A DNA stretch of 64,000 nt, from positions 15,004,001-15,068,000 of the forward strand of contig OZ024752.1 in NCBI GenBank assembly GCA_964016885.1, read 5' to 3'. The notes under the pieces are model-generated. The model searched no databases and had not been told where the DNA came from. It was given only the letters and a program-made list of their open reading frames with translations. Position 1 is the first letter of the stretch. Every line of letters begins with the position of its first letter. Position numbers and translations under genes: made by a program. This document shows, piece after piece, positions 57,395 through 59,416 of this stretch. This stretch comes from Eledone cirrhosa. Taxonomy: Eukaryota.

Positions 57395-58709
57395 GACAAA
57401 CCCACAACATACATACGTCAACATACATACCTACATCAGCACACATCTCTACCCACATATAAACACGATGACATATGTGTATATATATATATATATATAT
57501 ATATGTATGTATATATATATATATATATATATATATATATATATATATATATATATATATATATATATAGTGAATATATGTATGTGTATATATATATATA
57601 GTGAATATCATTTCACACCTTTTATTGTTAAGATTTTTGATGTTCTATTAAGAGAACCGATTTTAGTGAAAAAATCAAATAATGTACACCATTTTACCAG
57701 GGGGAAAAAAATACTGCCCCCCACCCCCCACATATATACACACACACATACACACGCGTACATTAACATACAAAGAGAATTATACACACACGCACTTCTC
57801 CGTATAAAACAAAAGCTGAAAAATATCTTTTGACATACCCCCCCATTGCTTTCAGACACATTCTTACTGACCATCCCTGCTACCACAAATTACTCTGCTA
57901 TACACACACACACACACACACACACACCCTCACACACACACACACACACACACACACACACACACGCACACACACACACACACACACACACACACACACA
58001 CACACACACACACACACACACACACTTATCGTAATAGCCATTTGACACACATCCCTGCTAACCATTATCACAACATCGAACACCTTACTACTACTACTAC
58101 ACACACACACACACACACACACACACACACACACACACACACACACACAGATTTTCTATTCCATTTACCAATATATAATAACTTGTGTGTCACACCTCTA
58201 TTCTTTTAACTATATATATATATATTATATATATATATATATATATGTAAAAAATTTTTTTAAAATTTTTTTTAAAAAAAATATTTTCTTATTTTACGTC
58301 CTTTATATTATTGTTCTGCATTCTCCTGCATTGAACCACCTAGGTACTATGACATAACCTGTGTATTTGCTGGCATGGGCGTGCATCTGTGCGCTTATGT
58401 TAGTTGATATATTAAATTATCTATATTTATCTCCAAATCACTGATTTGTCGAGCAAACTTGTCAAAAGCACTTCTAAAAAAATTTTTTTTGGGGTGTTAG
58501 TAGGCGTCAGTCATCTTACCATCCCATTCCTTCTAACTAGGCTCTGTGTCACGTGATTGATTCTTTAGAATCGGCCATTTGACTTGAAGCAGTGAGAATT
58601 TCGGTACATAGAATCCAGTCCTCGCAAGCTGTTCGATCTACCGAATTATTATTATTTTTATATGAGCCGCCAGTGTCCGCGCATTGCCTGGAGACTTAAC
58701 TGAGAATAG

Positions 58710-58791
58710 ACTCCCTGATGACGCAATGAATTCTCGACAGTTGGATTACGTAACTGTCTTTATCCCATTGCAGAAACTAATTAGTTGGAGT
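58710..58791 (+). ncRNA. Type I hammerhead ribozyme (family M)
   Basis: actcc CTGATGA c-gcaatg..gacagtt/aactgtc..cattgc-a GAAA ctaattag TT ggagt. Confidence 0.88.
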
Positions 58792-59258
58792 GAAAATTTA
58801 AGTAAGTAAAAAATTTTTTTAAAAAAAAAATATTTTCTTATTTTACGTCCTTTATATTATTGTTCTGCATTCTCCTGCATTGAACCACCTAGGTACTATG
58901 ACATAACCTGTGTATTTGCTGGCATGGGCGTGCATCTGTGCGCTTATGTTAGTTGATATATTAAATTATCTATATTTATCTCCAAATCACTGATTTGTCG
59001 AGCAAACTTGTCAAAAGCACTTCTAAAAAAAATTTTTTTGGGGTGTTAGTAGGCGTCAGTCATCTTACCATCCCATTCCTTCTAACTAGCCTCTGTGTCA
59101 CGTGATTGATTCTTTAGAATCGGCCATTTGACTTGAAGCAGTGAGAATTTCGGTACATAGAATCCAGTCCTCGCAAGCTGTTCGATCTACCGAATTATTA
59201 TTATTTTTATATGAGCCGCCAGTGTCCGCGCATTGCCTGGAGACTTAACTGAGAATAG

Positions 59259-59340
59259 ACTCCCTGATGACGCAATGAATTCTCGACAGTTGGATTACGT
59301 AACTGTCTTTATCCCATTGCAGAAACTAATTAGTTGGAGT
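59259..59340 (+). ncRNA. Type I hammerhead ribozyme (family M), second unit
   Basis: Identical to 58710-58791. Confidence 0.88.
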
Positions 59341-59416
59341 GAAAATTTAAGTAAGTAAAAAATTTTTTTAAAATTTAAAAAAAAAAAAAAAAATATTTTC
59401 TTATTTTACGTCCTTT

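What the first reader, a model, noticed from the sequence alone, without database searches (positions are those of the whole stretch)
58247..59416. 549-nt tandem, circularly permuted hammerhead element: candidate circRNA retrozyme
Seen: (TA)n-tail-[body-HHR-tail]x2-(TA)n with two intact HHRs exactly 549 nt apart and no ORF. The insertion starts ~20 nt downstream of the predicted GUU cleavage site; units differ by about one substitution plus homopolymer lengths; stem III is the palindrome ctaattag. Known: tandem minimal HHRs cleave as dimers and release monomers that circularise. Inference: a recently copied retrozyme, larger than typical metazoan ones, whose transcript would release a monomer 58787-59335.
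Basis: partly seen in the sequence, partly recalled or inferred. Interest (0 to 1): 0.85.

Follow-up and report, generated by a model that had tools for sequence, protein, structure and literature searches.

The report
Penelope-mobilised ribozyme circles, two-armed insertions
This is one copy of a large family of short non-coding repeats, each carrying a self-cutting RNA motif, whose insertions in this animal genome end at two fixed internal sites and often form two mirror-image chains, a pattern that likely comes from a Penelope-type retrotransposon enzyme copying one RNA, probably a circle, from both ends of a DNA break.

Summary
Observation confirmed: two type I hammerheads 549 nt apart, no ORF, inside (TA)n. 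The 549 is a local variant; the subfamily's usual unit is 557-558 nt. The copy belongs to a superfamily with 12,441 hammerhead-motif hits and 518-583-nt units; stem II covaries. It fits the known non-LTR retrozymes.

The new part is the insertion anatomy. Copies end not at the ribozyme site but at one of two internal TA-like sites, A and B, 118 nt apart (a long Penelope-type 'tail'). Many insertions are two inverted multimeric arms. One arm ends at A and the other at B in 59 of 60 classed cases; the coding Penelope-like family next door does the same in 16 of 16. Both arms share one haplotype (164 of 164 site calls). Private variants are fixed across all units, never shared by rank (0 of 25). 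Arm 5' ends are 3-fold enriched just after the cleavage site.

Best reading: a Penelope-type RT primes on both target strands and copies one monomer repeatedly, likely a circle. Not shown: RNA, cleavage, circles, or which Penelope family is the helper.

The parts
58211..58246 (.). Left (TA)n target; it directly follows the tail end of the Penelope-like insertion
58247..58786 (+). Unit 1, 5'-truncated (monomer position 20 to the cleavage site)
58300..58308 (+). Site A read through in unit 1 (same site at 58849-58857 in unit 2)
58309..58426 (+). 118-nt 'tail' between sites A and B, with two predicted hairpins (second copy 58858-58975)
   Evidence: structure predicted only
58420..58426 (+). Site B read through in unit 1 (58969-58975 in unit 2); the alternative 3' end at other loci
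58550..58555 (+). CACGTG box within a block conserved across subfamilies, possible internal promoter (second copy 59099-59104)
   Evidence: function inferred, untested
58710..58791 (+). Hammerhead 1 (type I): stem I 58710-14/58787-91, core 58715-21, extra C 58722, stem II 58723-28/58766-71, extra A 58772, GAAA 58773-76, 2-bp stem III with palindromic loop, predicted cleavage after 58786
58787..59335 (+). Unit 2, complete predicted monomer, 549 nt, 36.6% GC (A/T hairpin 9 nt shorter than usual)
59259..59340 (+). Hammerhead 2, identical to hammerhead 1; predicted cleavage after 59335
59336..59416 (+). Terminal partial unit ending at site A, the inferred start of reverse transcription
59417..59959 (.). 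Right (TA)n target
56156..58217 (+). Neighbour, a separate element: two-armed 5'-truncated Penelope-like insertion (GIY-YIG at the C terminus), one arm ending at each of its own two sites 41 nt apart; in-genome control for the A/B rule

Best explanation
The element is a non-coding hammerhead repeat whose insertions end at two fixed internal sites and are likely made in trans by a Penelope-like reverse transcriptase/endonuclease copying a probably circular RNA monomer. Inferred cycle: (1) a tandem array is transcribed through at least two hammerheads; (2) the hammerheads cut, probably as dimers through the palindromic stem III, and the monomer is probably ligated; (3) a PLE protein, probably a dimer, binds the 118-nt A-B domain and cuts both strands of a (TA)n tract; (4) one DNA end primes at A and the other at B on the same RNA, helped by 4-6 nt of TA homology; (5) each RT copies around the monomer, crossing the cleavage junction up to 6 times; (6) the two cDNAs are joined head to head with little or no microhomology. 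If one primer fails, a single arm is left, as in this window (about 2.1 units, ending at A). Shown in DNA: fixed ends, A/B reciprocity, one haplotype per insertion, scar-free junctions, excess of 5' ends after the cleavage site. Inferred: transcription, cleavage, ligation, the enzyme, the dimer.
For: A/B: 24 of 24 classed two-armed insertions in the similarity-ranked set and 35 of 36 in the position-ordered set (59 of 60, P 1e-16 against 50%). Same rule in the adjacent coding PLE family, 16 of 16. Tail and inverted 5' copy are PLE hallmarks (PMC8557442, PMC3846280); PLE RT starts at two internal sites and extends both strands in vitro (PMC11167929). Arms share alleles in 164 of 164 site calls at 36 informative of 38 loci; shuffled pairs disagree at 22%, 0 of 2000 shuffles as low. 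Six private variants are fixed in all units of 4 loci, two of them across both arms; 57 of 59 within-locus variants are singletons; 0 of 25 are shared by the rank-matched unit of the other arm. Junction identical in 165 of 166. 25 arm 5' ends at -3..+15 of the cleavage site against 7.95 expected, the top 19-nt window; 6 against 7.8 just upstream; in L163 both arms stop at +1. Ribozyme helices 97.9% paired with 16 double changes, 0 of 500 shuffles.
Against: No RNA evidence of any kind. No coding PLE shares detectable sequence with the unit. One B/B insertion (L206), and 16 two-armed parses had an end that could not be classed. An extra A between C11.1 and G12 is not among the features listed in the parts of PMC4209133 that I read, and the active fold is 2.5 kcal/mol above the minimum. 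In vitro, the anole PLE uses uncleaved RNA and does not need its hammerhead (PMC11167929); 8 of 9 Xenopus retrozyme dimers did not cleave (2026 preprint). The 5'-end excess could come from RT stalling at the 3' strand of stem I; the 25 ends come from only 19 insertions; the sharp +1 peak was partly a BLAST edge artefact (8 against 2.4 after correction). L057 shares one variant between arms at unmatched ranks.
Confidence: 0.62

Rival explanations
1. Same PLE-driven two-site priming, but the template is a long, uncut or partly cut linear multimer transcript, and no circle is involved.
For: Uncleaved RNA is the dominant substrate for the anole PLE in vitro (PMC11167929). Ends piling up after the cleavage site fit a linear 5' end. 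Young source arrays are nearly uniform, so they would leave few ordered variants.
Against: 0 of 25 variants are shared by rank, and private variants are fixed in 3-5 units and across both arms, which needs a one-unit bottleneck. Arms of one insertion that both stop near the cleavage site can hold different unit numbers (L047: 0 and 1; L054: 1 and 3). With 5' truncation, arrays would shrink each round, yet multimers occur in several subfamilies.
Confidence: 0.2
2. The template is the cleaved linear monomer; RT runs off its 5' end and jumps to the 3' end of the same molecule, mimicking a circle.
For: Explains one haplotype per insertion and the short insertions that stop at +1 (L163, L171, L191).
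Against: Template jumps usually leave added or lost bases (general knowledge of non-LTR RTs); 165 of 166 junctions are exact. Jumps between molecules would mix haplotypes; none seen.
Confidence: 0.1
3. The units are 5'-truncated ends (pseudo-LTRs) of a coding PLE, not an element in their own right.
For: The ribozyme has PLE min-HHR features (PMC4209133); tail and inversion are PLE features.
Against: The unit repeats head to tail up to 6 times per arm with no ORF between. None of 131 family insertion loci examined (39 + 72 + 20) continues into PLE coding sequence as part of the unit.
Confidence: 0.05
4. Solo units were inserted once and grew into arrays in place by unequal crossover (satellite route), or the tandem is an assembly artefact.
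For: The 2026 preprint proposes local amplification; one variant is shared by two adjacent units in L053.
Against: Multimers lie on both inverted arms, with ends at A and B and one haplotype, at dozens of unlinked loci with 99-100% identity. An independent assembly of short reads also holds the head-to-tail joint (table 5c), though that run may be the source sample.
Confidence: 0.03

Closest known systems
Non-LTR (metazoan) retrozymes (PMC7229834; bioRxiv 10.64898/2026.07.22.740005)
   Same: Tandem non-coding units below 50% GC, each with a type I hammerhead; mostly up to 7 repeats; PLEs proposed as mobilisers; copying of a circle into tandem cDNA proposed.
   Different: In the parts I read, neither paper describes fixed internal ends, a tail, or two-armed inverted multimers ('inverted' occurs 0 times in PMC7229834). 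Unit is above the 150-450 bp of the first paper and inside the 51-972 bp of the second. No homologous PLE pLTR was found here, unlike 21 PLEs matched in Xenopus. RNA not shown here.
Endonuclease-containing Penelope-like elements (PMC8557442, PMC3846280, PMC11167929)
   Same: Partial tandems, inverted 5'-truncated copy, tail at one end only, (TA)n targets, two internal RT start sites.
   Different: No ORF. Tail 118 nt against 30-40. Both start sites are TA-homologous to the target, whereas the anole element starts at non-homologous sites. Strict one-A-one-B use per insertion is counted here (59 of 60); the papers say 'often' or 'optionally' at one end, and one proposes self-priming on an antisense template for the inversion.
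PLE minimal hammerheads (PMC4209133)
   Same: [quoted passage not shown]
   Different: A further conserved A between C11.1 and G12 (363 of 364) and a long extension of helix II; carried by non-coding tandems rather than by a coding PLE.
Non-autonomous Chlamys elements such as MRC1 (PMC8557442, passage)
   Same: Non-autonomous PLE derivatives with multicopy head-to-tail insertions.
   Different: The abstract says this clade lacks canonical hammerheads, and the non-autonomous families share 3' sequence with their autonomous partner; neither holds here.

Membership tests
non-LTR retrozyme | At least two consecutive tandem units, each with a complete type I hammerhead | tested here: met
non-LTR retrozyme | No protein coding, GC below 50%, no LTRs | tested here: met
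   longest ATG ORF 27 aa; 36.6% GC; ends are internal sites of the unit. PBS/PPT not searched.
non-LTR retrozyme | Unit size in the reported range | tested here: met
   518-583 nt for intact units: inside 51-972 (2026 preprint), outside 150-450 (PMC7229834)
non-LTR retrozyme | Dispersed copies made by retrotransposition | tested here: met
non-LTR retrozyme | Self-cleavage of the transcript | not testable with these tools
   indirect only: covariation and excess of 5' ends after the site
non-LTR retrozyme | Linear and circular monomer RNA in tissues | not testable with these tools
   no run on record as RNA was listed
non-LTR retrozyme | Homology to the pLTR of a coding PLE (shown for 24 of 57 Xenopus families against Repbase) | tested here: inconclusive
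   none found in the PLE loci sampled; most PLE families of this genome were not sampled
autonomous EN+ PLE | RT + GIY-YIG open reading frame | tested here: not met
PLE-type integration | Tail at one end only, inverted 5' arm, microsatellite target | tested here: met
   control
PLE-type integration | Tail of 30-40 nt | tested here: not met
   118 nt
PLE minimal hammerhead | Extra nucleotide after A9, G10.1-C11.1, palindromic helix III | tested here: met
   extra C 364 of 364, G10.1 359 of 364, C11.1 364 of 364; the core boxes themselves were part of the search pattern
Rfam hammerhead families | Covariance-model match | tested here: not met

The most novel reading that the evidence does not exclude
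Two reverse transcriptases of a Penelope-type dimer, primed by the two ends of one (TA)n break, roll at the same time around a single ribozyme-made RNA circle from two dedicated start sites 118 nt apart. This 'double rolling-circle' target-primed insertion would explain the tail, the inversion and the tandem of PLEs in one step, and be the first genomic record that retrozyme circles are the copying template.
Probability: 0.45. Interest if true: 0.82.

Novelty: new variant of a known kind. Interest (0 to 1): 0.6.

Why it matters
Two questions are stated as open in the papers read: which enzyme moves animal retrozymes and whether circles are the template (PMC7229834; 2026 preprint), and how PLEs make their tail and tandem/inverted insertions (PMC8557442, PMC11167929). 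This young family of thousands of copies records both in DNA: PLE-type ends on a retrozyme, strict A/B pairing per event, one molecule per event. It gives a 560-nt substrate with defined start sites for an in vitro test. A compact RNA domain that directs multimer insertion into (TA)n from both strands would also interest people who build RT-based insertion tools or circular RNAs.

Tried and rejected
Rfam: no hammerhead match. RNA: no RNA holder listed, which says nothing on expression; laying 4 runs gave contigs of unrecorded kind only; partial holders labelled organisms B and C were not interpreted. Metagenome scan for a 23-nt motif: 0. Helper PLE not found: blastn of the unit against 32 loci of the neighbouring PLE family hit only this window; 20 further hammerhead loci were all family members; nhmmer over all held loci gave no outside relative; 30 GIY-YIG loci gave only an inserted family copy; a pattern for the same core with another stem III gave 115 hits against 186 in the control, and those listed were decayed members or chance. 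One search's exact +1 peak (14 against 1.1) was rejected as partly a BLAST edge effect and redone base by base, with 4 mis-parsed arms dropped (L209 x2, L198, L139 or L193 entries; 174 arms kept of 179 after the drop list). One search used a structure string that I had shifted by one column; one search is the corrected count. An intron reading (GTAAGT after the ribozyme) was considered: the window's nearest AG acceptor is not conserved in other subfamilies, so it is not claimed. Earlier findings of the scan: none. Literature searches for a prior description of two-armed or tailed retrozyme insertions listed none; the library lacks most subscription papers and Repbase/Dfam entries, and supplements (such as Fig. 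S9 of PMC7229834, Fig. S2 of PMC11167929, and those of the preprint) were not seen.

Full report
Observation. The window holds two identical type I hammerheads with cores at 58715 and 59264 and predicted cleavage after 58786 and 59335. The insertion runs from 58247 (monomer position 20) to 59416-59420, between (TA)n tracts. The units differ at 2 of 522 bases; the longest ATG frame is 27 aa. Rfam misses the motif. The circular monomer folds better than shuffles (z -4.6, 60 shuffles).

Family. The genome is 3.0 Gb, apparently animal; I did not identify it. The unit gave 123 matches from the 40 scored of 321 candidates, mostly 99-100% identical. A motif across site A has 5,570 exact hits (control 0), the hammerhead 3' motif 12,441 (control 1). 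Among 171 cleavage-to-cleavage units, intact ones are 518-583 nt, mode 557-558, in about 13 subfamilies down to about 70% identity. The 549 here comes from a shortened A/T hairpin.

Ribozyme. In 15 diverged copies the three helices are 97.9% paired with 16 double-sided changes in stem II; 0 of 500 shuffles reach this, and slid partners give 28-55% (related sequences can beat the shuffles, so the slid control matters more). Position 7 varies while an extra C after A9, G10.1, C11.1 and an extra A before G12 are kept in 359-364 of 364. The extra 5' nucleotide, 6-bp helix II and palindromic helix III match PLE minimal hammerheads, which act weakly and as dimers (PMC4209133, parts 1-2 of 4 read). 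Activity is inferred, not shown.

Ends. I mapped 38 loci from the similarity-ranked hits plus the window (set 1) and all 72 loci behind the first 100 position-ordered motif hits on contig C1 (set 2). Insertions end in (TA)n at one of two internal sites, A (about 70-80 nt after the cleavage site) or B (118 nt further), each ending in TA-like bases. Many are two inverted arms joined head to head, each with up to 6 passes through the cleavage junction, mostly with 0-9 nt of overlap at the joint. Where both ends could be classed, one arm ends at A and the other at B in 24 of 24 (set 1) and 35 of 36 (set 2; L206 is B/B). Five set 1 and 11 set 2 two-armed parses had an end at the locus edge or unclassed and were left out. 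The window copy is single-armed and ends at A.

Control. The insertion sits in the (TA)n at the end of a two-armed, 5'-truncated Penelope-like element (56156-58217; GIY-YIG). Its family is very abundant (19,839 candidates, many 784-aa frames at 98%); the C-terminal endonuclease with an upstream CxxC suggests the Neptune clade (label recalled, and consistent with a passage in PMC8557442). It has its own two ends 41 nt apart and uses one of each in 16 of 16 two-armed insertions among 32 loci (7 loci were picked because they looked inverted). This is the PLE 'tail', described as 30-40 bp and often at one end only (PMC8557442 and PMC3846280, passages read), and traced in vitro to two internal RT start sites with both target strands extended (PMC11167929, parts 1-2 of 4 read). 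The retrozyme therefore carries a PLE integration signature. It shares no detectable sequence with this or the other PLE loci sampled, so the helper is unnamed. A 7-nt word lies the same 14 nt before the TATAT of site A in both, a weak hint in AT-rich sequence.

One molecule, one unit. At six shared polymorphic sites the two arms agree in 164 of 164 calls (36 informative of 38 loci); shuffled arms disagree at 22%. Part of this could reflect subfamily age, but it also holds for a site that splits the youngest copies 26 to 8. In 39 loci, 6 rare variants are fixed in every unit of 4 loci, two of them across both arms, while 57 of 59 within-locus variants are singletons and 0 of 25 recur at the matching rank in the other arm. 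That needs a one-unit bottleneck and fits a circle better than an ordered linear multimer. The junction is exact in 165 of 166, which argues against template jumping. Against: uniform young source arrays would hide order, and the anole PLE prefers uncut RNA in vitro.

Cleavage site in vivo. After base-level correction, 25 of 174 arm 5' ends fall at -3..+15 of the predicted cut (7.95 expected; 19 insertions), 6 fall in the 20 nt before it (7.8 expected). In L163 both arms stop at +1. This fits run-off from a cut template, so linear or nicked monomers also serve. Stalling at stem I is an alternative, and the first estimate overstated the effect.

Comparison. It meets the genomic definition of a non-LTR retrozyme (PMC7229834: outline, passages, Results part 1 of 3 and Discussion read; 10.64898/2026.07.22.740005: parts 1-3 of 5 read). 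RNA-level criteria are untested. Those papers propose PLE mobilisation, and either RT of a circle or local amplification, without describing ends. My searches listed no account of tailed, two-armed retrozyme insertions or of a counted one-A-one-B rule; subscription papers, repeat databases and supplements were not covered.

Verdict. Real; a known kind of element with an anatomy that speaks directly to its mechanism. PLE-mobilised non-coding hammerhead element: about 0.9. Circle as main template: about 0.6. Interest 0.6.

Noticed in passing
window 56156-58217; L069-L100: Very abundant, young Penelope-like family with many 784-aa open frames, no hammerhead seen in its unit, two ends 41 nt apart and strict one-of-each use in 16 of 16 two-armed insertions. 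Best candidate helper by age and target, unproven.
   Followed up: partly
L241-L270: At least three more PLE families with C-terminal GIY-YIG end in (TA)n; in one of them two alternative ends about 40 nt apart are visible, so the two-site rule may be general in this genome.
   Followed up: partly
window 35451-35506: A second, unrelated minimal hammerhead-like motif with 5-bp stem I and a (TA)4 palindromic stem III. Many other hammerhead-like cores occur in flanks of fetched loci.
   Followed up: no
window 58802-58807 and 59351-59356: A GTAAGT splice-donor-like word just after the cleavage site, followed by a pyrimidine tract, kept in most subfamilies; no conserved AG acceptor. Possibly a relic of a PLE pLTR intron.
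   Followed up: partly
window 58545-58565: Block with CACGTG conserved across subfamilies; a similar box lies in the 3' region of another PLE family (L255, L259, L262). Possible internal promoter.
   Followed up: no
window 58807-58835 and equivalents: A/T-run hairpin that varies from 20 to 56 nt between units, even within one array; absent in several subfamilies. May be RT slippage or sequencing error.
   Followed up: partly
L055, L142, L152-L154, L204, L209: Copies of different subfamilies nest next to each other in the same (TA)n tracts, each insertion leaving fresh target.
   Followed up: no
window 40820-43699 (-), 27141-28436 (+), 8739-10685 (+): Helitron fragments (PIF1 helicase, Helitron_like_N) and two RT fragments, one followed by C2H2 zinc fingers.
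   Followed up: no
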